This document shows positions 599 through 28,285 of a DNA stretch of 64,000 bases, piece after piece. The position numbers and the translations under genes were made by a program. The notes under the pieces were generated by a model. It did no database searches and was not told the DNA's origin. It worked only from the letters and a program-made list of their open reading frames with translations. Every line of letters begins with the position of its first letter. Position 1 is the first letter of the stretch. Source of the stretch: Patescibacteria group bacterium (GTDB taxonomy: Bacteria > Patescibacteriota > Patescibacteriia > JACRDY01); the NCBI GenBank assembly GCA_041650515.1, contig JBAZLA010000002.1, positions 103,659-167,658 on the forward strand. The letters are read 5' to 3'.

Positions 599-614
599 TT
601 AAAATAAAAAAATT

Positions 615-1316: not shown

Positions 1317-1321
1317 TCTTA

Positions 1322-3808: not shown

Positions 3809-3830
3809 CCATAAATTTTAATATTGACTT

Positions 3831-5057: not shown

Positions 5058-5085
5058 TAAATAATTATATAACTAAATTAAAAAT

Positions 5086-6330: not shown

Positions 6331-7449
6331 ATGAAAAATTTGCCGCCACCGCGCGTCAAAATAATCTATTTAGTTCTGGGCGCGATAATCTTTGGCATAA
6401 CATTATTAGCCGCTCCAGCGCTCGCCGAATGGACCGAAGCTTCTTGTGTCCAATCCGGCGGCTGGTGGTATTCGGATAATTGCTGGGCTAATAACCCGAT
6501 GATTAATCTGGAGATACCTTTTGGCGGACTGCCCGCCAGCGGCCGTATTGGCATTGCTCAATATATCGGCGCGATTTATAAATTTGGCGTCACAACAGCC
6601 AGCGTCTTGGCAATTGTCATGATTATTATCGGCGGATTTATTTGGCTAACTTCAGCTGGCAGTCAGACCCGAATTACCCAGGCTAAAGGCTATATCGGTG
6701 GCGCTCTGATTGGTCTAGTGCTCGCGCTTGGCAGTTACACTATTTTAAGATTAGTTAATCCAGCTTTAACTGAATTTCGTCCGCTGCGAGTTTTATATTT
6801 AGAAGAAGAAAAGGTTGATTCCGGCGCTAACTTTTGTCCAGCCTCAACCGAAGATATGCCCTTATTTGATCTCAATAAAAAGAAACAAAAAGTTGGTGAT
6901 AAAGGCGAATGCGGGCAAGATTATAAAGTTGGCGATGCCGAAGCAACCGGCACCTGTCCGGGCTCTCACTGCAGCGGTGGCGGCATCTGCCTAATGGACG
7001 CCTCTAAAGATCCCAAAACCCTGCCTGACGGCCGTAAACAAGCAGTCATGGCTTGCCAATACCCAGAAGATGCTTGCAATAAAGTAGTTGATGAGAAAGT
7101 TGGTAATTTAAGCTTACCAACAAGTCAAGGTGCTTGTGATCAAATTAATAACCAAATAGCTTGGAGTGTTAGTAACCCTACCGGTACCTGCCATTGGGTC
7201 GATGAACCATATTCTGATGATGCTTGTTACTGGTGTCCTGAGGATAAAGAAAAGGTCGTAGCAGACGATTTAAAATCAGGAAAAACAAAATGTGAAGATT
7301 TGAGTGTTGGTCGATTCACTGGGACAAAAGAAGAAGATGCTTGCAATATAACAGTTTGTTCAAAGAGTTGCAGTGTTTATGTTGGCAGACCATTTTGGGA
7401 AGGAGTGACCGGCACTCTAGCGAGTGAAGCCCGCTCACTATGTAAATAG
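6331..7449 (+). CDS. Secreted Cys-rich protein with conserved two-helix hydrophobic hairpin (VirB2/TrbC-like topology), paralog 1; Cys-rich C-terminal domain of unknown function
   Basis: Signal peptide/TM (IIYLVLGAIIFGITLLAAPALA), Cys/Trp-rich N-domain, conserved block IAQYIGAIYKFGVTTASVLAIVMIIIGGFIWLTSAGSQTRITQAKGYIGGALIGLVLALGSYTILRLVNPALTEFRPL shared with the next three genes. Confidence 0.7.
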   Translation: MKNLPPPRVKIIYLVLGAIIFGITLLAAPALAEWTEASCVQSGGWWYSDNCWANNPMINLEIPFGGLPASGRIGIAQYIGAIYKFGVTTASVLAIVMIIIGGFIWLTSAGSQTRITQAKGYIGGALIGLVLALGSYTILRLVNPALTEFRPLRVLYLEEEKVDSGANFCPASTEDMPLFDLNKKKQKVGDKGECGQDYKVGDAEATGTCPGSHCSGGGICLMDASKDPKTLPDGRKQAVMACQYPEDACNKVVDEKVGNLSLPTSQGACDQINNQIAWSVSNPTGTCHWVDEPYSDDACYWCPEDKEKVVADDLKSGKTKCEDLSVGRFTGTKEEDACNITVCSKSCSVYVGRPFWEGVTGTLASEARSLCK

Positions 7450-7451: not shown

Positions 7452-8447
7452 ATGCTATCTAGAAATAAAAAGAAAAAATACACCGCTATTATCCTTGTTA
7501 TTTTTATTGGCTTATTTCTAGCCGCTAACCTTGTTTTAGCAACAGACGAAACTCCGCCCAAATGGACTAAGGACGGCTGTGACCAGGCTGGCGGCTGGTG
7601 GTTTGAAAGTAACTGTTGGGCTAATAACCCCACCATCAACCTGGCTGTACCTTTTGGTGGTCTAAAACCAAATACAACTATTGGCATCGCCCAATATATT
7701 GGTGCAATCTACCGTTTTGGCATCAGCGCGGCCAGTGTCTTGGCGATTGTGATGATTATTATCGGCGGGTTTATCTGGCTAACTTCAGCTGGTAATCCCA
7801 CGCGCGTCACCCAAGCTAAAGGCTACATCGGCGGCGCTCTAGTAGGTCTGGTACTAGCCCTCAGCAGTTATTCCATTCTCAGAACTATTAACCCAGCCCT
7901 AACTGAATTTAGGCCATTACACATTCTCTATGTCGGCGAAGCACCATTGGCGATTGCCACCTGCTGTGAAAAAGACGGCCAAATGAATATTATTTATGAG
8001 GCAAACCAAGAATGCCCCGAGGGTCAAAAAAAAGTCACTTGCCCGTGCAAAGAATTAGCCGCTAACGAATGCCAAGCTGGCATGGTAAAATCAACTAATT
8101 CTGATAAAATTAAAACTGGCTGTTACTCCACTGGCACTTGGATGAATATCGGCGGTGTTTATACTGCTGGCGGACTCCGAACTTGCGCCGAGATAGAATA
8201 CGGTGAAGATTGTTCCAACTTTGGCGGATTATTTGGCGGCCAGGCCTGCCGTAACTACGGCAAAACTTTTACTCACAAAGGTGGCACGGGCATCGTGCCG
8301 GACTATCCTGATCTCTTTAAAAATATCTGCACTTCTGATCCTTGCCAGATCGGCCCCTGTAAGTTTGTACAAACATCCAAAGATAAGGATGGCGTTCTTC
8401 AAAAACTAAACTGGTGTATTGGCGCCAATGAACAACCGCCAGAATAG
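7452..8447 (+). CDS. Paralog 2 of the hairpin family; Cys-rich C-terminal domain
   Basis: Start 3 nt after paralog 1 stop; near-identical N-domain motif GGWWFESNCWANNPTINL and conserved hairpin block IAQYIGAIYRFGISAASVLAIVMIIIGGFIWLTSAGNPTRVTQAKGYIGGALVGL...NPALTEFRPL; divergent Cys-rich C-terminus. Confidence 0.7.
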   Translation: MLSRNKKKKYTAIILVIFIGLFLAANLVLATDETPPKWTKDGCDQAGGWWFESNCWANNPTINLAVPFGGLKPNTTIGIAQYIGAIYRFGISAASVLAIVMIIIGGFIWLTSAGNPTRVTQAKGYIGGALVGLVLALSSYSILRTINPALTEFRPLHILYVGEAPLAIATCCEKDGQMNIIYEANQECPEGQKKVTCPCKELAANECQAGMVKSTNSDKIKTGCYSTGTWMNIGGVYTAGGLRTCAEIEYGEDCSNFGGLFGGQACRNYGKTFTHKGGTGIVPDYPDLFKNICTSDPCQIGPCKFVQTSKDKDGVLQKLNWCIGANEQPPE

Positions 8448-8476: not shown

Positions 8477-9688
8477 ATGTTTATCAAAAAACAAAAAATA
8501 AAACTAAGCCTAGTCACTTTTATCGCTCTGGCTAGTATTTTTGTTTATTTAGCGCCAGCTCTAGCTCAAAGCGGCGAGAACTGTTGTGTTTGTACTGATT
8601 TTGGTGGTAAAGACGTAAAATACGCTCCGGGCGTACCTGATGCTAACGGTAAATGCGACCAACATATCACCTACTCTACTGAGTGCTACGGTGAGGGCTG
8701 CGCCACTACCCCGGATAAAGTTTGCTCAGTCAAAGGTGGCAGCTGCAAAAGCTGGCAAGCGGCCATTGATAAAGTCTCGGGTGAAGAAGCAGCCAAAAAA
8801 GAACTATTACCAGCGACTCCCCCAGTTTTGCAAGTTAATATCCCCGGCCTCACTTTTACCGGCGAAATCAAAGCCACCATGGAAGAAATGGGTCGACGTT
8901 ATTATAATATTCCCTGGCTAGCTGAATATATCGGCGCGGTTTACCGTTTTGGTGTTAGCGTGGCTAGCGTCCTAGCAATCGTTATGATAATTATTGGTGG
9001 CTTTATCTGGATGACCTCGGCTGGTAACCAGGCCCGGATCACCCAAGCTAAGGGTTATATTAGCGGCGCGCTGATTGGCCTCTGTATTGCTTTGGGTAGC
9101 TACGGCGTTTTAAAAGTGGTTAACCCGGCCTTGGTCAATCTCCGGCCACTTAAGATACTGATGATTGAGTTTGAAGACCTAACTGGCGTCTCCACCAATG
9201 ATGATACGGCAGCTGCTAACCTTAGCTTTTCTCCTTCTACGCCGACCGGCGATACTCAACTCCTAAAGTTAAATAATTATAAGGGTCGACCAATTATATT
9301 AGATAAATCAATCGCCAACACAGTTCAACAGATTTTACAACAATTGATTGATGGCGGTTTTCAGGTAAAAGATGCCTCTAGCCATCGCCCCAATCAAGCT
9401 GGTTTTTCTTGGCATAAGTCCGGACTAGCTATTGATATTAATCCAGCTGAAAATCCATGCCCATGTTGCTATACTGGCACAGACTATAAACAATGCTCCT
9501 CTGATAAGTGGAAACCGGGAGTGGGTGGTGCCGTGACTAAAGAAGTAGTGGATGCCTTTAAAGCGCAAGGTTTCTGCTGGGGGGGAGATTGGTGTCATTT
9601 TAAGGATTACATGCATTTTTCGAAACCATCAAATAGCGCCAGCAAAGAGTGCGGAAACGGCGGAAATGGTTGTCCTTATCAGTGGTAA
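8477..9688 (+). CDS. Paralog 3 of the hairpin family with C-terminal peptidase M15 (VanY/phage L-Ala-D-Glu peptidase-like) peptidoglycan hydrolase domain
   Basis: Signal peptide, CCVC Cys-rich N-domain, conserved hairpin block (EYIGAVYRFGVSVASVLAIVMIIIGGFIWMTSAGNQARITQAKGYISGAL), then SSHRPNQAGFSWHKSGLAIDIN ... GFCWGGDWCHFKDYMHF matching Zn-binding S-x-H...D and WGGxW...DxxHF motifs of M15 peptidases. Confidence 0.75.
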   Translation: MFIKKQKIKLSLVTFIALASIFVYLAPALAQSGENCCVCTDFGGKDVKYAPGVPDANGKCDQHITYSTECYGEGCATTPDKVCSVKGGSCKSWQAAIDKVSGEEAAKKELLPATPPVLQVNIPGLTFTGEIKATMEEMGRRYYNIPWLAEYIGAVYRFGVSVASVLAIVMIIIGGFIWMTSAGNQARITQAKGYISGALIGLCIALGSYGVLKVVNPALVNLRPLKILMIEFEDLTGVSTNDDTAAANLSFSPSTPTGDTQLLKLNNYKGRPIILDKSIANTVQQILQQLIDGGFQVKDASSHRPNQAGFSWHKSGLAIDINPAENPCPCCYTGTDYKQCSSDKWKPGVGGAVTKEVVDAFKAQGFCWGGDWCHFKDYMHFSKPSNSASKECGNGGNGCPYQW

Positions 9689-9698: not shown

Positions 9699-10994
9699 AT
9701 GTTGAATAAATATTTAAAAATTGCGTTACTAACTATACTCTTTTGTTTAGCTCTAAGTCTCCAACCGGTTTTCGCCGGCGAGAGTTGCTGTGTTTGCAAC
9801 CCACTTAAAAATAAAGACAACCAAACTGCTAGTGGCGCGCCAACCGAGGGTAAATGCGACCAATATATTATTTATAGCACTCCAACTTGCCATGGCCAAT
9901 ATTGTCCACCTCAAGGACAACCAACTAATGAATGCCGAATTTTGGAATCTAGCTGCGCTAATGTTAGTAAAGCCATTTTAGAAAAAATCAACGGCCAAAA
10001 TAGCAAACAACCACTGCCTATTGAGGCACCCAATCTCCAAATCGCTATCCCCGGGCTAACTCTTACCCAACCAATCAGTGCTAAGGAAATGCCTAATACC
10101 GGTCGTTTATTCTATTCTATCCCCTGGATTGGCGAGTATATTGGGGCGATTTACCGCTTTGGGGTTAGCGCCGCCAGTATTTTAGCTATAGTGATGATTA
10201 TTATTGGCGGCTTTATCTGGCTCACTTCAGCCGGCAACCCGACCAAGATCACCCAAGCTAAGAGCTATATCAGCGGCGCCTTGCTCGGCTTAATGCTCGC
10301 TTTGGGTAGCTACACTATTCTAAGATTAGTTAATCCCTCGCTAGTCAATCTCAGCTCAATCAAAATTTTGATGATCGAATATGAACAAATGGAACAAGGT
10401 GGCCACGAATCGGATTATTTTCAAGTTAACTCTGGCGCCAAAGGTGCAGTTAGCGCCTATGATAGTGCTCCTTGTCCAACTAATGCTGAGGCGACTAACG
10501 GCTTTCAAGCCTTTATCACTGCTTACTATTCTCCGCCGCCCGGCGAAAAAGGTTTTTATAATAGTTTTGAATGTAACGTGGCGATGCAGTGCTCCTGCAC
10601 CCGCGATTCCAGTAAAACTTGCAGTCATAAATACGGCCCAGGTTGTCTGTTTAAAAAACCAGTAGAACAATTGATCCCTAATATCGACTACTGTACCAAA
10701 ACTGCCAGCGGTTCACCACCAACCTCCTGGGTCACTGTCGCCGCTGATGTTAAAAAGGGCACTGGCAAAGGCTGGGCGGATCATAAAGAATGTTGGAGTT
10801 TTGGCGACACTTTTGAAATTTATGACAGCGGCGGTAATAAAGTCGGCAATACGTGGGTGATTGGCGACCAAGGCTCAGCCATCAAAAGCCGCCACTTTGA
10901 TCTTTATGTCGGTACAGATTTATCCAAGGCTAGGAGCCTGGGTGGCGTTTATACAATCAAATTTACCAAGTGTACCAAATGTCCACTGCGTTAA
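9699..10994 (+). CDS. Paralog 4 of the hairpin family with C-terminal 3D-domain (MltA/YuiC-like) cell-wall hydrolase domain
   Basis: ORF track start 9552 overlaps paralog 3. ATG 9699 gives canonical signal peptide MLNKYLKIALLTILFCLALSLQPVFAGE; CCVC Cys-rich N-domain; conserved hairpin block; C-terminus AFITAYYSPP...CTKTASGSPPTSWVTVAADVKKG...WVIGDQGSAIKSRHFDLYVGTD matches TAY...ITASG...AVDP...DTGGAIKG.RIDLF pattern of 3D domains. Confidence 0.75.
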   Translation: MLNKYLKIALLTILFCLALSLQPVFAGESCCVCNPLKNKDNQTASGAPTEGKCDQYIIYSTPTCHGQYCPPQGQPTNECRILESSCANVSKAILEKINGQNSKQPLPIEAPNLQIAIPGLTLTQPISAKEMPNTGRLFYSIPWIGEYIGAIYRFGVSAASILAIVMIIIGGFIWLTSAGNPTKITQAKSYISGALLGLMLALGSYTILRLVNPSLVNLSSIKILMIEYEQMEQGGHESDYFQVNSGAKGAVSAYDSAPCPTNAEATNGFQAFITAYYSPPPGEKGFYNSFECNVAMQCSCTRDSSKTCSHKYGPGCLFKKPVEQLIPNIDYCTKTASGSPPTSWVTVAADVKKGTGKGWADHKECWSFGDTFEIYDSGGNKVGNTWVIGDQGSAIKSRHFDLYVGTDLSKARSLGGVYTIKFTKCTKCPLR

Positions 10995-11588
10995 ATGACT
11001 AACAAAATTCTCCAAACTTCTTTTTATAACCGACCAACACGTCAAGTTGCCCAGGATCTCCTGGGTAAAATTATTATCCGTCAAATCGGCCGCAAAAAAT
11101 ATTACGGCCTTATTACCGAAACTGAAGCTTATTGCGGGCCTCAGGACCAGGCCTCCCACGCTAGCAAAGGCCGCACCCCACGCACCGAGGTAATGTTTGG
11201 CCCAGCCGGCCACACCTATATCTATCTGATTTACGGTCTGTATCATTGTTTCAATATTGTCACCGAAAAAAAAGACTACCCAGCCGCGGTCCTGATCCGT
11301 GGCGCCCTCCCCTTACCAAAGGAATGGTTGGGTGGGGTTACTCTGCCCCTTTCCAAGAGGGAGATGGCCGAAGGCCAGAGGGGGTTAGCTAGTGGCCCAG
11401 GCAAACTCTGCCGTTATTTTAAAATTGATAAAACACTAAATAACCTCGATATTACTAAACCCAATAAACTTTGGCTGGTCGACAGCGGGCTAAAACCCCA
11501 AAGAATCATTCGCCGGCCTCGGGTCGGCGTTGATTACGCTGGTAAATACAAAGACAAAAAATGGCGGTTTATTACCCGATTTTCTTGA
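10995..11588 (+). CDS. mpg: DNA-3-methyladenine glycosylase (Mpg/AAG family)
   Basis: ATG overlaps TAA of upstream gene (taaATG); motifs GLITETEAYCGP, MFGPAGHTYIYLIYG, AVLIRGA, GPGKLC typical of Mpg family. Confidence 0.85.
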   Translation: MTNKILQTSFYNRPTRQVAQDLLGKIIIRQIGRKKYYGLITETEAYCGPQDQASHASKGRTPRTEVMFGPAGHTYIYLIYGLYHCFNIVTEKKDYPAAVLIRGALPLPKEWLGGVTLPLSKREMAEGQRGLASGPGKLCRYFKIDKTLNNLDITKPNKLWLVDSGLKPQRIIRRPRVGVDYAGKYKDKKWRFITRFS

Positions 11589-12168
11589 TACTATTTCTAT
11601 CTTCATCCCAATTTAAAGGATTATTGATAATATATTCGCTGATTTTTTGGTATTCTATTTGATTACGAATAATGTGTTCGTAATAATTTCGTTGCCATAA
11701 TCGTTGATCAAACGGCGACCAATTATTTTGTTTAACGTTTTTAATATATTCGTTGGTGGACATGGTTTTGAACCATTGCACCACCCGGGGTATTAATTGT
11801 TGGGAACGACGTAGGGGCAGACCCGGCGGTATTGGCAGACCTCTGTGTCTGCCCTGTTGGTTCGGGCAGACACAGAGGTCTGCCCCTACGTCGTCGATAA
11901 TTTCCACAATTCCATGAATATGATTTGGCATAACCACAAACACACCCAATCGAATGGTCAAAAATTTGTTCGGTAGTTTAGACCACCATTTTTGTGCCAT
12001 CCGACCCGCCGGATTTAAAATCATTCCCCCGTTTTCCACCCGACCGAATAAATAAACCATATTTTGGCTACAGATGGTAATGAAATATTGCCCCATTCCC
12101 GAATAATCATAATCGGGCAAGCGGATAGAACGACGGTGATGGTAATCGGGGTTATACATAGATAACAA
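11572..12168 (-). mobile_element. REP-associated tyrosine transposase (RAYT / IS200-like Y1 HuH transposase) gene with intragenic REP-like insertion
   Basis: HuH motif MPNHIHGIVEI and catalytic Tyr motif EYIINNP; about 30 extra residues (VGADLCVCPNQQGRHRGLPIPPGLPLRRS) between the two motifs are encoded by a GC-rich compound palindrome. Confidence 0.75.
11806..11894. repeat. GC-rich REP-like compound palindrome (BIME-like) inside the RAYT ORF
   Basis: Outer 18-bp perfect inverted arms acgacgtaggggcagacc / ggtctgcccctacgtcgt; inner units ggcagacctctgtgtctgccc and gggcagacacagaggtctgcccc are reverse complements of each other; GTAG/CTAC tetranucleotides flank the hairpins as in REP sequences. 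Confidence 0.8.
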
Positions 12169-15865: not shown

Positions 15866-15937
15866 CGCCCTCAGTAGGAATCGAACCTACATTACGAGAT
15901 CCGCAATCTCGCGTCCTATCCATTGAACGATGGGGGC
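15866..15937 (-). tRNA. tRNA-Arg (anticodon GCG as parsed)
   Basis: Minus-strand sequence GCCCCCATCGTTCAATGGATAGGACGCGAGATTGCGGATCTCGTAATGTAGGTTCGATTCCTACTGAGGGCG folds as cloverleaf: U8, A14, GG18-19, anticodon stem CGAGA/TCTCG, loop TTGCGGA (U33, G37), T-loop TTCGATT; 3' end abuts recG start. Confidence 0.7.
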
Positions 15938-16148
15938 TTAAACGAACTGGAAACTAAATTAGACTTCTGAAAACCAACTCCGATTTTATCCATTGTCACC
16001 CTCCGGGTGATCCGCCTTTGGCGGAAACGATGGGGGCTTAAACGAACTGGAAACTAAATTAGACTTCTGAAAACCAACTCCGATTTTATCCATTGTCACC
16101 CTCCGGGTGATCCGCCTTTGGCGGAAACGATGGGGGCTTAAACGAACT
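15926..16148. repeat. Tandem direct repeat, 100-bp unit x about 2.2, each copy containing the first 12 nt of tRNA-Arg plus 88 nt of its 5' flank
   Basis: Unit aacgatgggggcttaaacgaactggaaactaaattagacttctgaaaaccaactccgattttatccattgtcaccctccgggtgatccgcctttggcgga repeated identically at 15926 and 16026; third partial copy 16126-16148; unit contains hairpins tcaccc-tcc-gggtga and ccgcc-ttt-ggcgg. Confidence 0.85.
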
Positions 16149-16262
16149 AAACAAAATAAAGCAAAAAAATAGTCTCAGCTTCATTAGCTTTCCCGCCTAG
16201 ACTCGCGTCCGGCGAGGCTGGCCCAAGTATAGTAAAAAAGATAAATAAAATCAAGATTAAAG

Positions 16263-16751: not shown

Positions 16752-16755
16752 ATAA

Positions 16756-16784
16756 TTGACAGTTATTGTTAAAAATATTATATT
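16756..16784 (+). promoter_or_regulatory. Near-consensus sigma70 promoter for the tRNA-Ser pair
   Basis: TTGACA (16756-16761), 17-nt spacer, TATATT (16779-16784); tRNA-Ser starts at 16805. Confidence 0.6.
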
Positions 16785-16804
16785 AAAGCAGTCTTTTACC
16801 CAAT

Positions 16805-16897
16805 GGAAGGATGGCCGAGTGGCTGAAGGCAGCGGTTTGCTAAACCGTTATAGGGGTTTTATAGCTCCTATCGAGGGTTCGAATCCCTCTCCTTCCG
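16805..16897 (+). tRNA. tRNA-Ser (anticodon GCT)
   Basis: GGAAGGATGGCCGAGTGG... long variable arm, anticodon loop TTGCTAA, T-arm GGTTCGAATCC; 93 nt. Confidence 0.85.
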
Positions 16898-18413: not shown

Positions 18414-20291
18414 TTAATTTGGTGTTGCGGTTGCGCCGATAGATTGGTCTTCTCCAGTAGCCACCCGCTCATCAAACTCCTTTTTGGCAGCCTCAATCTC
18501 TAACAGCTGCCTTGGATCAGAAGTAATTAATTGATCCTCGGTATATGAGGCAACCACCTTAATCGCCGCATGACGGTTACCAGCAAAAAAGATACCCTCG
18601 CCGACGCCACATTCCAAAAGTAAATACTTTTCGCCCTCGGTAAGCAGAAAAGTTTTTTGAATATGATCAATGGATGATGGCGACTGTTTCATTAATATCT
18701 GCAAAGCTGAATTATTAACAATCGCTTGGCCATAAGGTGACAACAAAAAGTCATTAACATCCTGCGTAATAGTAGTCACCCCTAAATAATATTTACGACA
18801 ACGTTTTACCAGGGCAAAAATAAACCGCGCCGAATCTTCATTCTGCATCAACCACCAGCCTTCGTCAATAACCAAAATTCTTTTCTTGCGCTCAGAACGG
18901 ACGACATTCCAAATATAATTAACTAGATTATAAATAGCTAAAGGCCGCAGCTCGTCCTCTAGATCACGGACAGAAAAACAAACTAACTGATTATTAGTAT
19001 CAACATTAGTCGGACTATTAAACAAACCAGAAAAGGTACCCTCGGTAAACTTCTTAAACCGAGTGGCCATATCCGATCCGCCTTCCATACCCTCTAAAAT
19101 ATCAACCAAGTCTTGAATCAATGGCGGCTCGATGTCTTTAAGATTAGAATCAGCTGTAATGTCTTTTTTGGCATAGGTTTCCAATAGCGCCCGATCTAAA
19201 AGAGCGTCTTCTTTAGCGCTAATTTTGCCTAAAATTAGACGACACAGGCCTTTAATGGTAATAACGGCGCTGCGGATAATATCCTCCGTTTTAAAGTCTT
19301 TCTCCACTGGTCGCGGTAGGTCAAAAGGATTAACCTTGCTCTCAGAAGCGAGCGAAATATTAATATAAGTTCCGCCCACTGCGTCAGAGAGGTGTTTATA
19401 CTCTTTTTCTGGGTCAATAACAATAATATCCACCCCCAACATCAGACTCCTAAGTATCTCCAGTTTGATCGCGTAGCTCTTGCCAGCACCCGAGGTGGCA
19501 AAAACCACCATATTAGCATTCTGCAAACTAAATCGGTCGAACAAAATCAAACTGTTATTATGCCGGTTGATACCGTACATAATGCCATTGTCCGAGCTCA
19601 ACTCAAAAGAAATAAAAGGAAAGGACGAGGCACAGGGGGAGGTATTCATGTTGAAGGTAATTGCTAGTTCATCCAGACCCATTGGCAAAGTTGAATTGAA
19701 TCCTTGTTCGGCCTGATACAGAACTTGGCGAGAATAAACTAAACGCGAACCAAAAATATCTTCCATATCTTCGGTCAGCTCATCCAGCTCTTTCAAACTA
19801 TCGGCATAAATAGTGACATATAAAGCATATTGAAAAAAATGCTCAACACCTTGGGTTAAATCGTCACGCAGCTTCTCGATATCACGCAAAGCGGTTTCTT
19901 TGATCGGGTCACGAGGAGCACCCTTGTCGCGATCAGCAAAAATTTCTGCTTCTAGGTTACCCACTCTTTTTTTGAGCTGCTTGAGAATAAGCGCTGCCCT
20001 GACCGGATAAAAGAAGATCGAAACATCTAAAGGGTGGTTAAAGTTGATAATCGGCGAAAACCAACCAATAGTGATATAACGGGGATAGCTAATCACAAAC
20101 ATCGTCCGGACATATTTGGTGCCCAGAATAATATAGCTCGGCTTTACCTCTAAAGCAGCGGGAGCGATTAGATCAATAATCGAAATTTCGCCTTCGCGAT
20201 AACGACGCTCTTCTTCAATCACCTCCTTATTCAAAACGACCTGCGCCTGCTGTTCATTTTCTGGTTGTTTCTTTTTAAAAAATATCGACAT
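18414..20291 (-). CDS. virB4: VirB4/TrbE/PrgJ-family conjugative T4SS ATPase, C-terminal ATPase part
   Basis: Walker A VVFATSGAGKSYAI, Walker B ILVIDEGWWLMQ, typical VirB4 C-terminal domain; ATG in frame 3 nt after the TAA of the upstream ORF. Confidence 0.85.
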   Translation of the reverse strand: MSIFFKKKQPENEQQAQVVLNKEVIEEERRYREGEISIIDLIAPAALEVKPSYIILGTKYVRTMFVISYPRYITIGWFSPIINFNHPLDVSIFFYPVRAALILKQLKKRVGNLEAEIFADRDKGAPRDPIKETALRDIEKLRDDLTQGVEHFFQYALYVTIYADSLKELDELTEDMEDIFGSRLVYSRQVLYQAEQGFNSTLPMGLDELAITFNMNTSPCASSFPFISFELSSDNGIMYGINRHNNSLILFDRFSLQNANMVVFATSGAGKSYAIKLEILRSLMLGVDIIVIDPEKEYKHLSDAVGGTYINISLASESKVNPFDLPRPVEKDFKTEDIIRSAVITIKGLCRLILGKISAKEDALLDRALLETYAKKDITADSNLKDIEPPLIQDLVDILEGMEGGSDMATRFKKFTEGTFSGLFNSPTNVDTNNQLVCFSVRDLEDELRPLAIYNLVNYIWNVVRSERKKRILVIDEGWWLMQNEDSARFIFALVKRCRKYYLGVTTITQDVNDFLLSPYGQAIVNNSALQILMKQSPSSIDHIQKTFLLTEGEKYLLLECGVGEGIFFAGNRHAAIKVVASYTEDQLITSDPRQLLEIEAAKKEFDERVATGEDQSIGATATPN

Positions 20292-20294: not shown

Positions 20295-20993
20295 TTATTC
20301 TTCAACTTTAATTTTATCAACCTCTATCATTTTTTCCGACTCCGATAACTGCGGGTTATAAGAATTATAATACAACTCAATCAAACTCTGGGTGTCGAGC
20401 GGCGTGGCTTGCAGGCCCATACTATTCAAACCGCCAATCACGTGACTAACCCGCTGATATAAATCTCGACGTCTCTGATTAAACCTTTCTTCGCCGAGTT
20501 TGATCAAACTCGTGGGAGTAAACAGCTCCAATAGCCTTGACCAAAAACCGCGTTGCTTGTCCGATAAGGGATTATAAGGCACAACAATATAAAACTTCTT
20601 AGTCATAATATCGCCAATTTTGACCAGTTCGGCCACAAAATTACGGTAGTCTTTAATCTGCATTTTTAGCAGTTCATTAATCTGTTCTTTCTCAAATTTT
20701 TTTAACCTATCTAAATAATCATCAATATCAAACCGACGCGACTGGATAACAATCTGAATAGGAAAATCAATTGAATTTAAAAAGCTCATATAAGCGGTAA
20801 CAATCGCTTGTTGCTCATCAGACGACTTAAGCGCAAAATTAATGCTAGCGACCATAACAACCGCTCGCAAAGTTCCATCTTTAAGCACCACGCAGTCATT
20901 ACGAACCTCGGCAATCGGTACGTACTTCTTGGTTGACGGAGTAGATTTGTTTGTTGCTCGCTTACTCTTCATAGATTGATTTATAAATACCAC
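20295..20993 (-). CDS. VirB4 N-terminal domain (CagE/TrbE/VirB N-domain) encoded as separate ORF
   Basis: PIAEVRNDCVVLKDGTLRAVVMVASINFALKSSDEQQAI matches N-terminal region of VirB4 proteins; 232 + 625 aa equals normal VirB4 length; same frame as the ATPase ORF, separated only by TAA-GCT. Confidence 0.65.
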   Translation of the reverse strand: MVFINQSMKSKRATNKSTPSTKKYVPIAEVRNDCVVLKDGTLRAVVMVASINFALKSSDEQQAIVTAYMSFLNSIDFPIQIVIQSRRFDIDDYLDRLKKFEKEQINELLKMQIKDYRNFVAELVKIGDIMTKKFYIVVPYNPLSDKQRGFWSRLLELFTPTSLIKLGEERFNQRRRDLYQRVSHVIGGLNSMGLQATPLDTQSLIELYYNSYNPQLSESEKMIEVDKIKVEE

Positions 20994-21399
20994 CAGTATT
21001 AACTACCAACGATAGCTCCTCCAGGTGTGAACTCGACATTAATTTTTTGGGCGCAATTTTTCTGACCGAACTAACCGCCACTGGACGCTGTAAAATTTCT
21101 CTAATCTCTTGATCGGTTAAACTTTTATCCCAAACTTTAAGCTTCGGTTTTTTAAATGTCTCGATAACATTAAGTAAAAAATAATGAAACGGTCGCCCAT
21201 TAATCTTAGCAAAAGCAATAGTGCCAAAGATAGCAAAAATCAACACCGTCGACACAACAAAAGTCCAAAAATCAAACAACTTATAACAAACAAAAATCAG
21301 CATCAAGGCAACAATACTAATAATAAACTGACGGACGGTAATCGGACCAAACACCCGCGGCTCAACCTCGATAAATTGGGGAACAAGAAACTGTTCCAT
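20962..21399 (-). CDS. PrgI/VirB3-like small membrane protein
   Basis: FGPITVRQFIISIVALMLIF followed by a second TM helix, matching the GLTxRQ + two-TM signature of PrgI-family VirB3 analogues; overlaps VirB4-N start. Confidence 0.6.
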   Translation of the reverse strand: MEQFLVPQFIEVEPRVFGPITVRQFIISIVALMLIFVCYKLFDFWTFVVSTVLIFAIFGTIAFAKINGRPFHYFLLNVIETFKKPKLKVWDKSLTDQEIREILQRPVAVSSVRKIAPKKLMSSSHLEELSLVVNTGGIYKSIYEE

Positions 21400-25288: not shown

Positions 25289-28285
25289 TTATTTACCCTT
25301 GCCAAAATATTTTCGGAATAAACTTGATAAAGAACCGTATAAATCAGTACCTTGTTTATTCTTAAGCGAAGCTATCTCCTGAGCCAAACGTTCGCCCTCG
25401 GCACTACCCATTTTTTTGGCCATATTCTCCATATTCTTAGCTAATTCTTGGGCTAATCGACTAGTCTGGGCGTTAGAGTCGCCTCCTTTTAGATCTTTAA
25501 TTGCGTCAGTTAATTTGCCGACATTTTCTTCCATTTTGGTTAATAATTCTCTGCTGCCTTCTGGATAGGTCTCTCTTGACCGAGGTTCTCTGGCTTCAGA
25601 TTTGGTTCCACCGGCTGTTTCTTCTTCATCTTCAGTAAACGGTCTATTAGTTGCTGGATTAATAATTCGACTTCCCGCCGGCTCGGGCTTACCACCTTCA
25701 GGAGTTTTATTACTACTTAATAATCCGCCTAAAACTTTACTAAACCGTTCAGCATCTCCATCACTAAATTTCCCACCTTTCAATATTGGCTCTAATTTAG
25801 CCTGTATATCTTTACTCCCAGTTCGGCCGAAATATTGATAATTTAAAACATCCATCAAAAGCTTTGGATTTTTCTTATGCTCAAGTTGTAACCTTCTGAG
25901 TGTTTCCCCTTTACTGCGGTAATTTCCATCGGGATCTGTCCCATCCATAATCTCACCGGTCTTACGATCAATCCAACCCGACTCATTCTCTGCAATACTA
26001 CCTTGACGTAAAACATGTCGCCCAAAACGGGTCTGACCGCGATGGAGTTCAGCGGAAAACTCTGGACCCAAATATTTATACATCGCCCGATTATACATGC
26101 TCCCGCCTTCGTAACCTCTAGTATCGATGGAGGAATCACCAGTTTCCTTATTATAAGCCCTATTGACAACATTATGAGAAGCAAAAGATTTTCTAAAAGT
26201 CGCTGTATCCATCTTGGCAGCGTTGCCCTGTACATCTTTTATTTTCGCTATATTATTTAGTAATAATGGCAAGCCGCTTTGAGAATCCTTAAGTACTGTT
26301 GACTGCTCCCAATGGCCAATTTTTCTGGCGGTTTGGGTCATAGTCTGCATCCGCCACAAACCGCGCTTTTCATCCTCAGAAGCATTTTGAGTATTATCGA
26401 TTTGTTTTTGCTTGACTTTAGCCCCATATTGTCCCCATAGTTCCTCCCGAGCAGCATCTTCAGCATCAACTCGGGTGTCATATTCCCCACTTTTAAATTT
26501 ATTCTCAATTAGTGCCTGTAAATCAACTTTATTTTCACTGAGCATATCCTCAAAAATCTTTTCCGGATCAAATTTTTCCCTACCCAAATCAAGTAATTTC
26601 ATATCCATAATCTTATAAGTCTCATCAGTACCCTTTAGGGCGTGATTATAATCATCAAAACCCCACGATTTAGCCGTTGCTTCTCTTTCTTCTGGGTTTA
26701 ATTTAGCCCATTTTTTAATAACAGCATCATAAACATCATCCTTATTGCCTTCCCGAGTAGCTAAACCTAAATGGCCAGATGTCCGGTCATAACCTTCCCG
26801 GGTTTTGTCTTGCATCGCCCGCAATACGCCCTCAACCATATTTTCCAGGTTAAGGTCGCCGCCTAATTCTTCTTCGGCTTTTTTCTCCGCGGCGGCCTGG
26901 ATCTTCAACTCAGTCATCTGCTCGATCGGCGGCATGGCTTTCTCTCCCACCATCGCCTTCTGCCACCATTTATTACCTCTACCTTCGGCACGCTGCTTGG
27001 ACTTTTCATACATTTCATCACCACGCTTGCCGACGCCTTTCCAAAAACTCGGCGTTAGAAAAGCCAACCGACTCTCACCCACGGACGAAGCAATACGCTG
27101 ACCGATTCTTTTAGATCCTAGAACCAAGCCGGCCAACGGCGCACCAGCTACCTTCGTTCCCAACCCCTGCGCCTTAGCCACAAAAGCCGAACCGAGTTTG
27201 CCACCAGCGACACCCAGCTGGCCAGTCATCGACATACCCGCTACCAGCATACCAATCGAAATAATAAATTTTCCCATAAAACCCCAGCTGCCGGCATCAG
27301 TCGAACCAGCCTGAGGCACTTGGTCACCACCCGTTATCGGCGTACTGGCATCGCCACCCGGACTTTTTAGATCAGCATCAATACTACCAAAAACCGCTAG
27401 CGATAACCAAATAAAGAAGGCTAGGATCGGGCCAGTAATAACATATTTAGTAAACTGCTGCGACCACTGCCGGGCATAACTCTGACCCGAGGGAAAAGAC
27501 ATCAGTAAGAAAAAGACTGGGGAAAGAATAATCAAGAACCAAAGCATAATCACCCGAAAAGCCAGAATAATCACCATAATAACCAGAATCGCCAACAAAA
27601 ACACCGAGTAAATTAAAGCCAAAAACATTGAACCGGCAATACCCGATGGTGTTAATTGAGCATCGGTGACGTTACCACTCACCGACTGGGTAAGAGCAGC
27701 GCTGGCGCCCGACATGCTTAATAGCTTAGTAATACCGGTGGCGTTAATAAAATTACCTGGCCCGACATCTTTAAAAGCATTAACAAAGGTCAACATCACC
27801 ACCTGGGAAGCATCAATGGCTAAGCCGCAAATCGTTTTGGAAAAATTAACCAAAATCGCCAGAATAATCATCTTGGGCAGTAAACGCTTATAATTATAGC
27901 TTTCGATTTTAAGAATCGTGGCAAAGGCAATGATCAGGAAAATCAAAACAAAAAACATATTAACCACATCACGAACCACCACCCAGCCGATTACGACCGC
28001 CCCGGAGCTGATAAAAGTATTATACTGAGCAATCCATAGTAGCACCCAAAAAACCACCATGATCAACCCACCGATCAGCGCCACGAAGATCATTAGAATC
28101 ATCGCTACCACCAAAGCCACTACTAAGCCCGGCACGCCGCTACTTTGCGCGCCAGCTGATGACATATTAAGCAAAACGGCTGACAAAACTACTGCCAACA
28201 CTATACCAGCTAGCCGATAACGACTCCCAAGTACCAATAATTTCTGAGTAAACCGATCAAATATTTTTTTGATTGAGTTGATCAT
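25289..28285 (-). CDS. VirB6/TrbL/PrgH-like polytopic membrane protein with about 600-aa hydrophilic C-terminal extension
   Basis: Seven or more TM helices in first about 380 aa, Gly/Ser-rich loop, long charged C-terminal domain; location between VirB4 and giant secreted protein. Confidence 0.5.
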   Translation of the reverse strand: MINSIKKIFDRFTQKLLVLGSRYRLAGIVLAVVLSAVLLNMSSAGAQSSGVPGLVVALVVAMILMIFVALIGGLIMVVFWVLLWIAQYNTFISSGAVVIGWVVVRDVVNMFFVLIFLIIAFATILKIESYNYKRLLPKMIILAILVNFSKTICGLAIDASQVVMLTFVNAFKDVGPGNFINATGITKLLSMSGASAALTQSVSGNVTDAQLTPSGIAGSMFLALIYSVFLLAILVIMVIILAFRVIMLWFLIILSPVFFLLMSFPSGQSYARQWSQQFTKYVITGPILAFFIWLSLAVFGSIDADLKSPGGDASTPITGGDQVPQAGSTDAGSWGFMGKFIISIGMLVAGMSMTGQLGVAGGKLGSAFVAKAQGLGTKVAGAPLAGLVLGSKRIGQRIASSVGESRLAFLTPSFWKGVGKRGDEMYEKSKQRAEGRGNKWWQKAMVGEKAMPPIEQMTELKIQAAAEKKAEEELGGDLNLENMVEGVLRAMQDKTREGYDRTSGHLGLATREGNKDDVYDAVIKKWAKLNPEEREATAKSWGFDDYNHALKGTDETYKIMDMKLLDLGREKFDPEKIFEDMLSENKVDLQALIENKFKSGEYDTRVDAEDAAREELWGQYGAKVKQKQIDNTQNASEDEKRGLWRMQTMTQTARKIGHWEQSTVLKDSQSGLPLLLNNIAKIKDVQGNAAKMDTATFRKSFASHNVVNRAYNKETGDSSIDTRGYEGGSMYNRAMYKYLGPEFSAELHRGQTRFGRHVLRQGSIAENESGWIDRKTGEIMDGTDPDGNYRSKGETLRRLQLEHKKNPKLLMDVLNYQYFGRTGSKDIQAKLEPILKGGKFSDGDAERFSKVLGGLLSSNKTPEGGKPEPAGSRIINPATNRPFTEDEEETAGGTKSEAREPRSRETYPEGSRELLTKMEENVGKLTDAIKDLKGGDSNAQTSRLAQELAKNMENMAKKMGSAEGERLAQEIASLKNKQGTDLYGSLSSLFRKYFGKGK

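What the first reader, a model, noticed from the sequence alone, without database searches (positions are those of the whole stretch)
9270..9688. Paralog 3 carries a bona fide M15-type peptidoglycan peptidase domain
The C-terminal 130 aa contain SSHRPNQAGFSWHKSGLAIDIN and GFCWGGDWCHFKDYMHFS. These reproduce the H-x6-D ... WGGxW ... DxxH zinc-binding signature of VanY / phage L-alanoyl-D-glutamate endopeptidases (M15C). The domain is placed extracellularly after the hairpin and is additionally Cys-rich (CPCCYTGTDYKQC), which suggests disulfide stabilisation outside the cell.
Basis: partly seen in the sequence, partly recalled or inferred. Interest (0 to 1): 0.6.

Follow-up and report, generated by a model that had tools for sequence, protein, structure and literature searches.

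The report
Cell-wall peptidase fused to a pilin
The gene at 8477-9688 of this ultrasmall (Patescibacteria) bacterium joins a secretion-system pilin-type membrane hairpin to a genuine zinc cell-wall-cutting peptidase of the phage-endolysin type. The enzyme itself is ordinary and already annotated, but carrying it on a pilin is a recurrent design that I did not find described.

Summary
ORF 8477..9688 (+, 403 aa) ends in a Peptidase_M15_4 domain (69.3 bits against a cutoff of 25). It has the full LAS catalytic set: R304, H313-x6-D320, WGGDW and D377-x2-H380. All of these except R304 are invariant in 41 fused and 19 unfused relatives. They align with the zinc ligands of the endolysins LysB4 and Ply500. 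A domain model (pLDDT 81) matches only LAS enzymes and phage M15C lysins.

NCBI already names the protein an M15 family metallopeptidase, so the domain call is not new. The context is more interesting. The peptidase sits on the outside end of a VirB2-like pilin hairpin. It is gene 3 in a tandem array of four such pilins, in a conserved locus 9-17 kb from virB4, prgI/virB3 and virB6 homologues. At least 46 relatives have the same hairpin-then-M15 order. Other hairpin proteins carry SLT, amidase, 3D, M23, NlpC/P60 or VanY domains.

The cysteine count in the outer domain is even in 43 of 46 fusions, which supports disulfides.

Most likely role (inferred): a tethered wall-opening enzyme for the type IV secretion apparatus. 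Whether it cuts the cell's own wall or a host's wall is unresolved.

The parts
8477..9688 (+). Whole CDS, 403 aa plus stop: signal peptide, Cys-rich N-ectodomain, VirB2-like hairpin, linker, M15_4 peptidase, Cys tail
   Evidence: ORF list. Identical to an NCBI protein named 'M15 family metallopeptidase [Patescibacteria group bacterium]'.
8477..8566 (+). Predicted Sec signal peptide, aa 1-30 (MFIKKQKIK...LAPALA | QSGEN)
   Evidence: Hydrophobic segment at aa 7-33 and helix 2-24 in the model. The A-x-A cleavage site is read by eye and was not tested with a predictor.
8567..8914 (+). N-terminal ectodomain, aa 31-146, with 8 Cys (36, 37, 39, 60, 70, 75, 83, 90). Ends in the conserved PxLxVxIPG...IPW segment just before the hairpin
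   Evidence: Cys positions. Model confidence is low for aa 29-93. P116, P123 and Y151 are nearly invariant in 150 relatives.
8915..9121 (+). VirB2/TrbC-like pilin hairpin, aa 147-215: two long hydrophobic helices joined by the basic loop TSAGNQARITQAKGY
   Evidence: T4SS_pilin PF18895 scores 22.5 bits (below the gathering score of 26.6), with a match at aa 150-206. Helices 147-179 and 185-215 have pLDDT above 90. 95 of 111 relatives match PF18895, best E 1e-27. The core is 73-84% identical among the four paralogs despite synonymous divergence.
9182..9253 (+). Flexible linker, aa 236-259
   Evidence: pLDDT below 50 for aa 241-257. Poorly aligned among homologues.
9254..9631 (+). LAS-type zinc peptidase domain (Pfam Peptidase_M15_4; MEROPS M15C-like), aa 260-385
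9386..9388 (+). R304, the conserved Arg. Probable counterpart of LysB4 Arg50, which binds the substrate carboxylate or oxyanion
   Evidence: Nearly invariant. Arg50 contacts the sulfate in LysB4. The equivalence is ambiguous because LysB4 has an extra flap in this region.
9407..9436 (+). S311-W-H313-K-S-G316-L-A318-I-D320: the SxHxxGxAxD motif holding zinc ligands 1 and 2
   Evidence: H313 and D320 are invariant in 41 fused and 19 unfused relatives. They align to LysB4 His80/Asp87.
9458..9496 (+). Cys-rich insertion CPCCYTGTDYKQC, aa 328-340, in a lower-confidence loop
   Evidence: C328 and C331 are shared with P0002, P0040 and P0087. C330 and C340 occur only in the window protein and P0002, appearing together as a pair.
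9578..9616 (+). W368-G-G-D-W...D377-Y-M-H380: the catalytic Asp and zinc ligand 3
   Evidence: W368, G369, D377 and H380 are invariant; G370 is invariant in the fusions and in 18 of 19 unfused relatives. They align to LysB4 Asp129/His132.
9632..9685 (+). C-terminal tail with C392 and C399 (ECGNGGNGCPYQW)
   Evidence: Shared with P0002 and with the phage-borne P0040 and P0087.
6331..7449 (+). Paralog 1: same hairpin, with a Cys-rich C-terminal domain that matches no known family
7452..8447 (+). Paralog 2: same hairpin, with a Cys-rich C-terminal domain that matches no known family
9699..10994 (+). Paralog 4: same N-domain and hairpin as paralog 3 (54% identity over aa 9-237), with a C-terminal domain that weakly matches 3D (MltA/RlpA-like)
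   Evidence: 3D PF06725 scores 20.3 bits (below the gathering score of 23.8), E 7e-4. Also.
18414..20291 (-). VirB4-like T4SS ATPase
   Evidence: P-loop_TraG 94 bits, plus AAA_10 and DUF87.
20962..21399 (-). PrgI/VirB3-like protein
   Evidence: PF12666 scores 31.8 bits.
25289..28285 (-). VirB6/TrbL-like polytopic membrane protein
   Evidence: PF04610 scores 27.4 bits.

Best explanation
The gene encodes a Sec-exported membrane protein. After signal-peptide cleavage it is held in the cytoplasmic membrane by a VirB2-like two-helix pilin hairpin. Both its Cys-rich N-terminal domain and its C-terminal domain lie outside the cell.

The C-terminal domain is a catalytically competent LAS-type (M15_4/M15C) zinc metallopeptidase. 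H313, D320 and H380 hold the zinc. D377 and a zinc-bound water carry out hydrolysis, and R304 helps bind the substrate. The domain cuts peptidoglycan stem peptides. The L-Ala-D-Glu bond is most likely, by analogy with its closest solved relatives. Disulfides probably stabilise the domain.

The protein is one of four tandem pilin paralogs in a conserved T4SS-linked locus. Paralog 4 probably carries a glycan-cleaving (3D) domain. Together I infer that they supply the local wall-opening (VirB1-like) activity at the site where the type IV secretion or pilus apparatus crosses the wall.

Shown: the domain identity, the conservation of catalytic residues, the architecture, and the recurrence and synteny of the fusion. 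Inferred: the topology, the disulfides, the bond specificity and the link to T4SS function.
For: Domain identity:
- Pfam M15_4 scores 69.3 bits against a cutoff of 25.
- PDB sequence and profile hits to Ply500 and LysB4 reach E 6e-12.
- Ligand mapping follows PMC6354061.
- H313, D320, W368-G369, D377 and H380 are invariant in 60 relatives, and G370 in 59.
- The domain model has pLDDT 81 and pTM 0.80. Its top 26 PDB matches are all LAS or hedgehog-fold enzymes. It has 8 phage M15C or endolysin matches at E <= 1e-3, with TM 0.54-0.62.
- It matches PHROG endolysin families.

Topology:
- A signal-like segment and two hydrophobic helices with a basic loop.

Disulfides:
- There are 8 Cys in each ectodomain.
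- The Cys count is even in 43 of 46 fusions, with values of 4, 6, 8, 10 and 14.
- A DsbA-like gene lies next to the array in L087.

Recurrent architecture:
- 46 proteins have the order hairpin then M15.
- Other hairpin proteins carry VanY, SLT, Peptidase_M15, Amidase_2, 3D, M23, NlpC/P60, glucosaminidase or CHAP domains.

T4SS link:
- virB4, prgI and virB6 homologues lie in the window.
- The same locus order is found in three other genomes. One of them pairs pilin-SLT with pilin-M15.
- Pfam found no separate VirB1-type hydrolase among the ORFs next to virB4.
- A published survey notes that most Patescibacteria with VirB2-like pilins lack VirB1. It also notes that ABY1 T4SS loci include recG and comF, as this window does (PMC12102498).

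Constraint on the hairpin:
- Strong purifying selection on the hairpin suggests it is more than a passive anchor.
Against: - No experiment exists for any member of this fusion family.
- The pilin array is 9 kb from virB4, on the opposite strand, and is separated from it by recG, tRNAs and comF. It is co-transcribed instead with clpB-like and M48 genes. The T4SS link therefore rests on neighbourhood and homology only.
- Paralog 3's own PF18895 score is below the gathering threshold.
- At 403 aa with two ectodomains, the protein is far larger than any characterised VirB2.
- The closest solved relatives lack the Cys-rich insertion and have a flap that this domain lacks, so the substrate cleft and bond specificity may differ.
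- PDB fold matches are only moderate (best E 2.4e-3, TM 0.44).
- Zinc-site geometry could not be measured.
Confidence: 0.55

Rival explanations
1. Host-directed weapon. The hairpins polymerise into a VirB2-type pilus whose outer surface displays the C-terminal enzymes. The M15 peptidase then cuts the wall of the bacterial host the epibiont attaches to. This is analogous to virion-associated lysins on phage tails.
For: - The hairpin core is under strong purifying selection among paralogs, while the ectodomains differ completely. This is as expected if subunits co-assemble.
- The set of fused wall hydrolases is very diverse and interchangeable. Array size varies between syntenic genomes: 4 here, 2 in L001 and 3 in L087.
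- The window has no plain short pilin, so any pilus would have to be built from decorated subunits.
- The same M15 domain is embedded in tape-measure proteins of Rhizobium phages, which breach walls from outside.
- Cultivated Patescibacteria are epibionts whose T4SS and pilin arrays are essential (PMC10633639; PMC12102498).
Against: - No T4SS pilus has been visualised in Patescibacteria, according to the papers read.
- No immunity gene is evident.
- Packing two ectodomains (about 115 and 170 aa) on every subunit of a VirB2-type filament may be sterically difficult (my inference).
- The tether places the enzyme right next to the cell's own wall.
- The lifestyle of this particular organism is unknown.
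Confidence: 0.2
2. Housekeeping autolysin or stem-peptide-trimming carboxypeptidase. The hairpin is only a membrane anchor, and the enzyme remodels the cell's own wall during growth and division, unrelated to the T4SS.
For: - Pfam names M15_4 a D-Ala-D-Ala carboxypeptidase family.
- Profile hits include the LdcB/YodJ-type L,D-carboxypeptidases (4ox3; 4jid).
- The gene lies in a conserved chromosomal operon with housekeeping-like envelope and proteostasis genes: M48, ClpB-like and a beta-propeller protein.
- Unfused M15_4 domains are common in Bacillota and Actinomycetota genomes.
Against: - This does not explain why the anchor is a T4SS-pilin homologue conserved at 73-84% identity among paralogs.
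- It does not explain why so many different wall hydrolases use the same carrier.
- The closest relatives by sequence are lytic endopeptidases of phages rather than carboxypeptidases.
Confidence: 0.17
3. Pro-protein carrier. As with the C-terminal processing of TrbC/VirB2 propilins, the C-terminal domain is cleaved off after the conserved N216-P217-x-L219 segment. The peptidase is then released as a soluble secreted enzyme, leaving a mature short pilin.
For: - N216, P217 and L219, immediately after helix 2, are nearly invariant in 150 relatives, whereas the following linker is not.
- C-terminal trimming of TrbC and VirB2 propilins is established (my own knowledge, not checked here).
- No short pilin gene exists in the window.
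Against: - No protease gene of the TraF type was seen in the window.
- The conserved segment may simply be the end of the membrane helix.
- There are no proteomic data.
Confidence: 0.06
4. A captured phage endolysin remnant, or a non-catalytic wall-binding module with no enzymatic role.
For: - The nearest non-pilin relatives (P0040 and P0087, 42-44% identity, same six Cys) lie in phage-like contigs.
- An IS200-like Y1 transposase gene lies 1.9 kb downstream.
Against: - Every catalytic residue is intact and invariant across 41 fusions.
- The fusion is syntenic in at least four genomes, so it is a stable and selected chromosomal gene.
Confidence: 0.02

Closest known systems
Phage L-alanoyl-D-glutamate endopeptidase endolysins of the M15C / Peptidase_M15_4 type: Ply500 (PDB 2VO9), LysB4 (PDB 6AKV), Bacillus phage SP-15 endolysin, PlyA006
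   Same: - The same Pfam family.
- The SxHxxGxAxD and WGGDW...DxxH motifs, aligned residue for residue to the zinc ligands and catalytic Asp.
- Best sequence, profile and fold matches.
   Different: - Those enzymes are soluble and have a C-terminal wall-binding domain. They are encoded in phage lysis cassettes.
- This one is C-terminal to a membrane hairpin and has no wall-binding domain.
- It lacks the alpha3-alpha4 flap of LysB4.
- It has a Cys-rich insertion plus a Cys tail (8 Cys).
- It is a conserved chromosomal gene.
Uncharacterised phage-borne 172-173-aa M15_4 proteins P0040 and P0087, each with an N-terminal hydrophobic segment (probable exported endolysins)
   Same: - 42-44% identity across the domain.
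- Six of the eight Cys and the ECxxxxCPY tail are conserved.
- Closer to the window domain than any pilin-fused relative except P0002.
   Different: - Stand-alone proteins with a single N-terminal hydrophobic segment instead of a pilin hairpin.
- Encoded in contigs with capsid (SU10_MCP), Rep_O, ERF and YopX genes.
VirB2/TrbC-like pilin arrays of Patescibacteria T4SS (PF18895; Quinonero-Coronel et al. 2025, PMC12102498; Wang et al. 2023, PMC10633639)
   Same: - A tandem array of VirB2-like hairpin genes.
- An ABY1-type locus with recG, comF-like, virB4, prgI and virB6 genes.
   Different: - The published descriptions treat these genes as pilins. The passages retrieved by term searches for M15, peptidase, fused, additional domain and C-terminal do not mention enzymatic C-terminal domains.
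- Here every array member is 331-431 aa with large ectodomains.
- The paralog cores are far more similar (73-84%) than the reported 25% average whole-protein identity within arrays.
VirB1-type T4SS peptidoglycan hydrolases of Gram-positive systems (TraG of pIP501, PrgK of pCF10: SLT plus CHAP)
   Same: - Wall-cleaving enzymes encoded with a T4SS.
- They combine a glycan-cleaving activity and a peptide-cleaving activity. Here this would be the 3D candidate in paralog 4 (or SLT in L087) together with M15 in paralog 3.
   Different: - The catalytic families differ (M15 rather than CHAP).
- The activities are split over separate pilin-fused proteins.
- The role in T4SS assembly is inferred, not shown.
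Virion-associated lysins: M15 domains inside tail tape-measure proteins of Rhizobium phages (RHEph10, B1VFA)
   Same: A related M15 domain (25-28% identity over 75-83% of the query) is built into a structural, filament-associated protein that has to cross a cell wall.
   Different: The carrier is a phage tail protein rather than a pilin, and the relationship is only at domain level.

Membership tests
Peptidase_M15_4 (PF13539) / LAS zinc peptidases, MEROPS M15C | Profile HMM score above the curated gathering threshold | tested here: met
   69.3 bits (E 4.3e-19) against a cutoff of 25. The domain alone scores 72 bits.
Peptidase_M15_4 (PF13539) / LAS zinc peptidases, MEROPS M15C | SxHxxGxAxD motif providing the first His and the Asp zinc ligands | tested here: met
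   S311-W-H313-K-S-G316-L-A318-I-D320. H313 and D320 are invariant in 60 relatives. They align to LysB4 His80/Asp87.
Peptidase_M15_4 (PF13539) / LAS zinc peptidases, MEROPS M15C | C-terminal DxxH: catalytic Asp and third zinc ligand | tested here: met
   D377-Y-M-H380, invariant. Aligned to FKDYPHF of LysB4 (Asp129/His132) and of Ply500.
Peptidase_M15_4 (PF13539) / LAS zinc peptidases, MEROPS M15C | Conserved Arg upstream of the His motif (LysB4 Arg50) | tested here: inconclusive
   R304 is nearly invariant. Its equivalence to Arg50 is uncertain because LysB4 has about 21 extra residues between the two positions.
Peptidase_M15_4 (PF13539) / LAS zinc peptidases, MEROPS M15C | LAS / hedgehog-type fold | tested here: met
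   The domain model has pLDDT 81 and pTM 0.80. PDB top 26 matches are all LAS or hedgehog folds, best LysB4 with probability 0.99, E 2.4e-3 and TM 0.44. BFVD gave 8 hits at E <= 1e-3, probability 1.0 and TM 0.54-0.62. The scores are moderate rather than strong.
Peptidase_M15_4 (PF13539) / LAS zinc peptidases, MEROPS M15C | The three ligands converge on one zinc site in 3D | not testable with these tools
Peptidase_M15_4 (PF13539) / LAS zinc peptidases, MEROPS M15C | Zinc-dependent cleavage of peptidoglycan stem peptides, and which bond is cut | not testable with these tools
   This needs biochemistry. The nearest solved relatives are L-Ala-D-Glu endopeptidases, and carboxypeptidases are more distant (4ox3 at E 1.7e-3).
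VanY (PF02557) D,D-carboxypeptidase | Profile HMM score above the gathering threshold | tested here: not met
   12.8-16.1 bits against a cutoff of 25, covering the His-motif region only.
T4SS VirB2/TrbC-like pilin (PF18895 T4SS_pilin) | Profile HMM score above the gathering threshold | tested here: inconclusive
   22.5 bits against 26.6 for this protein. However, 95 of 111 hairpin relatives match at E <= 1e-3 (best 1e-27). The source's precomputed Pfam list gives PF18895 for the fused homologues.
T4SS VirB2/TrbC-like pilin (PF18895 T4SS_pilin) | Signal peptide followed by a two-helix hydrophobic hairpin with a short basic loop | tested here: met
   Hydropathy segments at aa 7-33, 151-184 and 194-220. 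Helices 147-179 and 185-215 have pLDDT above 90. The loop is AGNQARITQAKGY.
T4SS VirB2/TrbC-like pilin (PF18895 T4SS_pilin) | Encoded with T4SS core genes (virB4, virB3, virB6) | tested here: met
   virB4-like 18414-20291, prgI-like 20962-21399 and virB6-like 25289-28285. They lie 9-17 kb away on the other strand. The same arrangement is seen in L001.
T4SS VirB2/TrbC-like pilin (PF18895 T4SS_pilin) | Small mature subunit (roughly 70-120 aa) that polymerises into a pilus | tested here: not met
   The size criterion is not met: 403 aa, with about 115-aa N-terminal and about 170-aa C-terminal ectodomains. Polymerisation itself cannot be tested here.
VirB1-like T4SS wall hydrolase | SLT/lysozyme-like or CHAP catalytic domain | tested here: not met
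   The catalytic domain is M15_4. The resemblance is functional only.
Phage endolysin | Encoded in a phage lysis cassette or prophage | tested here: not met
   The gene is chromosomal and syntenic in four genomes, lying between the clpB-like gene and recG. Only the unfused relatives P0040 and P0087 are phage-borne.

The most novel reading that the evidence does not exclude
In Patescibacteria the VirB2-like pilin hairpin is a modular carrier for a whole arsenal of peptidoglycan hydrolases: M15_4, VanY, VanX-type M15, SLT, 3D, amidase_2, M23, NlpC/P60, CHAP and glucosaminidase. The T4SS-associated filament built from such subunits would then be an enzymatically armed pilus that digests its way through the wall of the host bacterium. 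It would be a cell-borne counterpart of phage tail lysins, and a concrete mechanism for how wall-less-metabolism epibionts gain access to host cytoplasm. This would also explain why these genomes mostly lack a separate VirB1.
Probability: 0.2. Interest if true: 0.8.

Novelty: new variant of a known kind. Interest (0 to 1): 0.45.

Why it matters
Cultivated Patescibacteria (CPR) depend on other bacteria. Their T4SS and its pilin arrays are essential for epibiotic growth in the one genetically tractable species, yet what the system does is unknown (PMC10633639, PMC12857230).

A published survey remarked that most of these genomes have VirB2-like pilins but no VirB1 wall hydrolase (PMC12102498). 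This window offers a simple and testable answer. The wall hydrolases are fused to the pilins themselves: a peptide-cutting M15 in one paralog, and a probable glycan-cutting domain in its neighbour. The design recurs in dozens of sequence clusters with many different hydrolase families.

If the enzymes act on the host wall, this would be a direct molecular handle on how epibionts breach their hosts. If they act on the producer's own wall, it is still an unusual solution for assembling a secretion machine.

The peptidase domain taken alone is routine, and automatic pipelines already annotate it.

Tried and rejected
- A fold search with the full-length model returned only helical-hairpin look-alikes (histidine kinases, AcrA, ATP synthase c). 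The long hairpin dominates the match. It was repeated with the domain alone.
- A second word-indexed homologue search, using only the domain, found 6 candidates and 1 hit. It was too insensitive for a census, but it gave P0040.
- NCBIfam has no model that matches the domain.
It was of no use for CPR synteny, apart from one Saccharibacteria locus (L007) that spans both hairpin and M15. Synteny was obtained instead from exact-protein look-ups.
- A PDB sequence search with paralog 4's C-terminal domain gave only chance kinase matches, so its 3D assignment remains weak.
- VanY-type glycopeptide resistance was considered and rejected. The VanY score is sub-threshold, and no van genes were seen among the scanned ORFs.
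- Recent duplication or gene conversion was considered as the reason for hairpin similarity, and rejected because synonymous sites have diverged.
- A Cys4 structural zinc site was considered instead of disulfides. It is less likely because Cys counts of 6, 10 and 14 are common, but it is not excluded.
- Literature searches and term searches within five of the papers they returned found no description of pilin-hydrolase fusions. The library holds open-access papers only.
Full report

Yes. ORF 8477..9688 on the + strand encodes 403 aa. Both quoted peptides are present, at aa 301-322 and aa 365-382.

Pfam gives Peptidase_M15_4 (PF13539) at 69.3 bits (E 4.3e-19) against a gathering score of 25, matching aa 307-382. 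The excised domain scores 72 bits. VanY is only a sub-threshold echo (12.8-16 bits), and NCBIfam has no matching model.

The motif is a perfect LAS signature: S311-x-H313-x-x-G316-x-A318-x-D320, then W368-G-G-D-W, then D377-x-x-H380. The His inside 'SSHRPN' (H303) is not the ligand. The conserved residue there is R304.

**2. Is the domain a bona fide, probably active peptidase?**

- *Sequence matches to solved structures.* A sequence search of the PDB finds the endolysins LysB4 (6akv) and Ply500 (2vo9). A profile built from 30 homologues raises these to E 5e-10 and 6e-12.
- *Ligand mapping.* In those alignments H313/D320 fall on the SNHNYGVAVD motif and D377/H380 on FKDYPHF. The LysB4 structure paper assigns zinc coordination to His80, Asp87 and His132, with Asp129 holding the catalytic water and Arg50 contacting a bound sulfate (PMC6354061). 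The chain numbering offsets are consistent with H313=His80, D320=Asp87, D377=Asp129 and H380=His132.
- *Conservation.* In my alignment of 41 pilin-fused and 19 unfused relatives, H313, D320, W368, G369, D377 and H380 are invariant. G370 is invariant in the fusions and in 18 of 19 unfused relatives.
- *Fold.* An AlphaFold model of aa 255-403 has pLDDT 81 and pTM 0.80. In the PDB its first 26 Foldseek matches are all LAS or hedgehog-fold proteins: LysB4, LdcB, RB49 peptidase, MepA, VanXYc, VanX, ChiX, VanY and hedgehog. The scores are moderate, however (best E 2.4e-3, probability 0.99, TM 0.44).
- *Viral models.* Against viral models, 8 matches reach E <= 1e-3 with probability 1.0 and TM 0.54-0.62. 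All eight are phage proteins, and the five that carry a name are M15C proteins, 'D-Ala-D-Ala carboxypeptidases' or an endolysin.
- *Phage families.* PHROGs places the domain in endolysin families. tblastn against phage genomes finds the Bacillus phage SP-15 L-alanoyl-D-glutamate peptidase (37%) and PlyA006. It also finds M15 domains inside tape-measure proteins of Rhizobium phages.

**3. What carries the domain?**

The protein has five parts:
- a signal-peptide-like start, aa 1-30;
- a Cys-rich N-terminal region with 8 Cys;
- two long hydrophobic helices (aa 147-179 and 185-215, pLDDT above 90) joined by a basic loop;
- a disordered linker (aa 236-259; pLDDT below 50 for aa 241-257);
- the peptidase.

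The hairpin matches T4SS_pilin PF18895 at 22.5 bits, just under the 26.6 cutoff. However, 95 of 111 relatives match PF18895, down to E 1e-27.

With a cleaved signal peptide and a positive loop inside the cell, both ectodomains are outside. It remains an inference.

**4. The neighbourhood**

Four tandem genes share this hairpin: 6331-7449, 7452-8447, 8477-9688 and 9699-10994. They are the only hairpin ORFs in the window, and there is only one M15 domain.

The 75-aa hairpin core is 73-84% identical between paralogs. Only 36-57% of identical residues use the same codon, so the similarity reflects purifying selection rather than recent duplication. Outside the core the proteins differ completely.

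Paralog 4 shares the N-domain and hairpin with paralog 3 (54% identity). It ends instead in a domain with a weak 3D (MltA/RlpA-like) match of 20.3 bits against a cutoff of 23.8.

The array follows M48, UPF0259-like and ClpB-like genes and two unknown genes on the same strand. On the opposite strand lie recG, a ComF-like phosphoribosyltransferase, a VirB4-like ATPase (18414-20291), a PrgI/VirB3-like gene (20962-21399) and a VirB6/TrbL-like gene (25289-28285). This is the ABY1-class Patescibacteria T4SS locus type described in PMC12102498.

The exact protein is in NCBI as 'MAG: M15 family metallopeptidase [Patescibacteria group bacterium]' on a 243.5-kb contig.

**5. Relatives**

An exhaustive phmmer search of 1.84 billion representatives gives 18,327 hits at E <= 1e-3, mostly through the hairpin. 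Among the 181 proteins collected, 46 have both the hairpin and M15, always in that order.

Of 111 hairpin proteins without M15_4, many carry other wall hydrolases:

| Domain | Proteins |
|---|---|
| VanY | 10 |
| SLT | 8 |
| Peptidase_M15 | 7 |
| Amidase_2 | 5 |
| 3D | 5 |
| Peptidase_C39_2 | 4 |
| M23 | 3 |
| NlpC/P60 | 2 |
| Glucosaminidase | 1 |
| CHAP | 1 |

Synteny is conserved in three other genomes:
- A Candidatus Falkowbacteria genome (L001) has M48, UPF0259, ClpB, two unknowns, a pilin, pilin-M15, a Y1 transposase, recG and virB4 in the same order.
- L087 has LemA, M48, ClpB, two unknowns, a DsbA-like gene, pilin-SLT, pilin-M15 and a pilin.
- L089 has the propeller-like gene, two unannotated genes flanking pilin-M15, and recG.

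So the fusion is a stable chromosomal gene of this lineage. A peptide-cutting enzyme and a glycan-cutting enzyme recur side by side.

The nearest relatives of the window's M15 domain, after P0002 (61%), are two unfused 172-173-aa proteins (P0040 and P0087, 42-44%). They have an N-terminal hydrophobic segment, the same six Cys and the same ECxxxxCPY tail. Both sit in phage-like contigs with a capsid gene, Rep_O, ERF and YopX. Phages and pilin fusions have therefore exchanged this Cys-rich M15 subtype. The direction of exchange is unknown.

**6. Cysteines**

The protein has 17 Cys: 8 in the N-ectodomain, 1 in helix 2 and 8 in the peptidase region. That is 4.2%, against 1.6% in 18 other window proteins.

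Across relatives, the C-terminal ectodomain has an even number of Cys in 43 of 46 pilin-M15 fusions (values 4, 6, 8, 10, 14), and in 125 of 155 hairpin proteins. By my arithmetic, 43 or more even counts out of 46 would occur with probability about 2e-10 at even odds. Because the sequences are related, this figure overstates the significance. C330 and C340 appear together, and only in the window protein and P0002.

Parity, the paired gain of cysteines and the DsbA-like neighbour in L087 together favour disulfides. A Cys-based metal site is not excluded.

**7. Mechanism and rivals**

*Shown:* a catalytically intact LAS/M15_4 domain, its position after a pilin-type hairpin, and the recurrence and synteny of the fusion near T4SS genes.

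*Inferred:* zinc-dependent cleavage of stem peptides outside the membrane, most likely at L-Ala-D-Glu by analogy with the nearest solved relatives.

My preferred reading (confidence about 0.55) is a tethered, VirB1-like wall-opening enzyme for the T4SS/pilus apparatus. Three points support it:
- Pfam finds no separate VirB1-type hydrolase among the scanned T4SS-cluster ORFs.
- The literature notes that most Patescibacteria with VirB2-like pilins lack VirB1.
- A glycan-cleaving partner sits next door.

The rivals are:
- display on a polymerised pilus to attack a host wall (0.2), which is the most novel reading;
- a housekeeping autolysin or carboxypeptidase with the hairpin as a plain anchor (0.17);
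- a pro-protein that is cleaved after the conserved NPxL segment to release the enzyme (0.06);
- an inactive captured endolysin (0.02).

**8. Novelty**

The M15 call itself is already in public annotation. Tandem VirB2-like pilin arrays in Patescibacteria are published (PMC12102498, PMC10633639, PMC12857230). The papers I could search do not mention enzymatic domains on these pilins. That library covers open-access papers only, so absence there is not proof.

I rate it a new variant of a known kind. The enzyme is standard, but it sits in an unusual, recurrent and functionally suggestive architecture. Interest is moderate, and it comes from the pilin-hydrolase design rather than from the domain.

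Noticed in passing
window 9699-10994 (+): Paralog 4 shares the N-domain and hairpin with paralog 3 (54% identity over aa 9-237). It ends in a domain with a sub-threshold 3D (MltA/RlpA-like) match of 20.3 bits against 23.8. Five other hairpin proteins match 3D, down to E 4e-6. A PDB sequence search gave only chance hits. If real, the array pairs a peptide-cutting and a glycan-cutting enzyme.
   Followed up: partly
window 6331-7449 and 7452-8447 (+): Paralogs 1 and 2 have C-terminal ectodomains of 160-200 aa with 14-16 Cys each and no Pfam match. Two relatives of the hairpin family match the Dickkopf N-terminal Cys-rich region. Their function is unknown.
   Followed up: no
window 8822-8929 (+), aa 116-151 of paralog 3: A segment just before the hairpin (P-x-L-x-V-x-I-P-G ... 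I-P-W-x-A-E-Y) is nearly invariant in 150 relatives (P116, P123, Y151), although the rest of the N-domain is not. N216-P217-x-L219 after helix 2 is equally conserved. These could be processing or assembly signals. They remain unexplained.
   Followed up: no
window 176-6324 (+), with L001, L087 and L089: A conserved gene order precedes the pilin array in four genomes: (LemA), M48 peptidase, (UPF0259-like), ClpB/ClpC-like AAA+ ATPase, an unknown low-complexity acidic/proline-rich protein with a C-terminal hydrophobic region (3831-5057), and a beta-propeller-like protein (5086-6324; faint Tricorn_N/PD40 hits in relatives). The gaps between genes are short, which suggests one operon with the pilins.
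   Followed up: partly
L087 7974-8651: A DsbA/Thioredoxin_4 gene lies directly upstream of the pilin-SLT and pilin-M15 genes in one relative. Another DsbA-like gene lies near a pilin in L002. No DsbA-like gene was found among the ORFs scanned in this window.
   Followed up: partly
window 28316-36625 (-) and 41706-51269 (-): There are two giant ORFs of 2769 and 3187 aa. The first lies immediately beyond the VirB6-like gene and has only a weak CBM_4_9 match. The second was not scanned. They are possibly large surface proteins associated with the T4SS locus.
   Followed up: partly
window 11572-12168 (-), and L001 11047-11745: An IS200-like Y1 transposase-family gene (23.8 bits, at threshold) sits right after the array and the MPG glycosylase gene. 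A counterpart occupies the same position in the Falkowbacteria genome. This suggests a domesticated or REP-associated element rather than an active insertion.
   Followed up: no
phage records H7-H11: M15_4-like domains related to this one are embedded in the tail tape-measure proteins of several Rhizobium phages (RHEph10, B1VFA, RHph_Y2_11/17). This is another case of the domain riding on a structural protein that must cross a wall.
   Followed up: no
L004 8001-9360 and L005 8001-8519: The closest unfused relatives (P0040, P0087) are phage-borne, have an N-terminal hydrophobic segment and keep six of the Cys. In L004 an M23 peptidase gene follows directly. The hosts of these phages are unknown. 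If they infect Patescibacteria, the Cys-rich M15 subtype would be tuned to the wall of Patescibacteria themselves.
   Followed up: partly
window 15866-17022: Three tRNA genes (Arg-GCG on the minus strand; Ser-GCT and Ser-TGA on the plus strand) lie between recG and the comF-like gene, inside the stretch that separates the pilin array from virB4.
   Followed up: no
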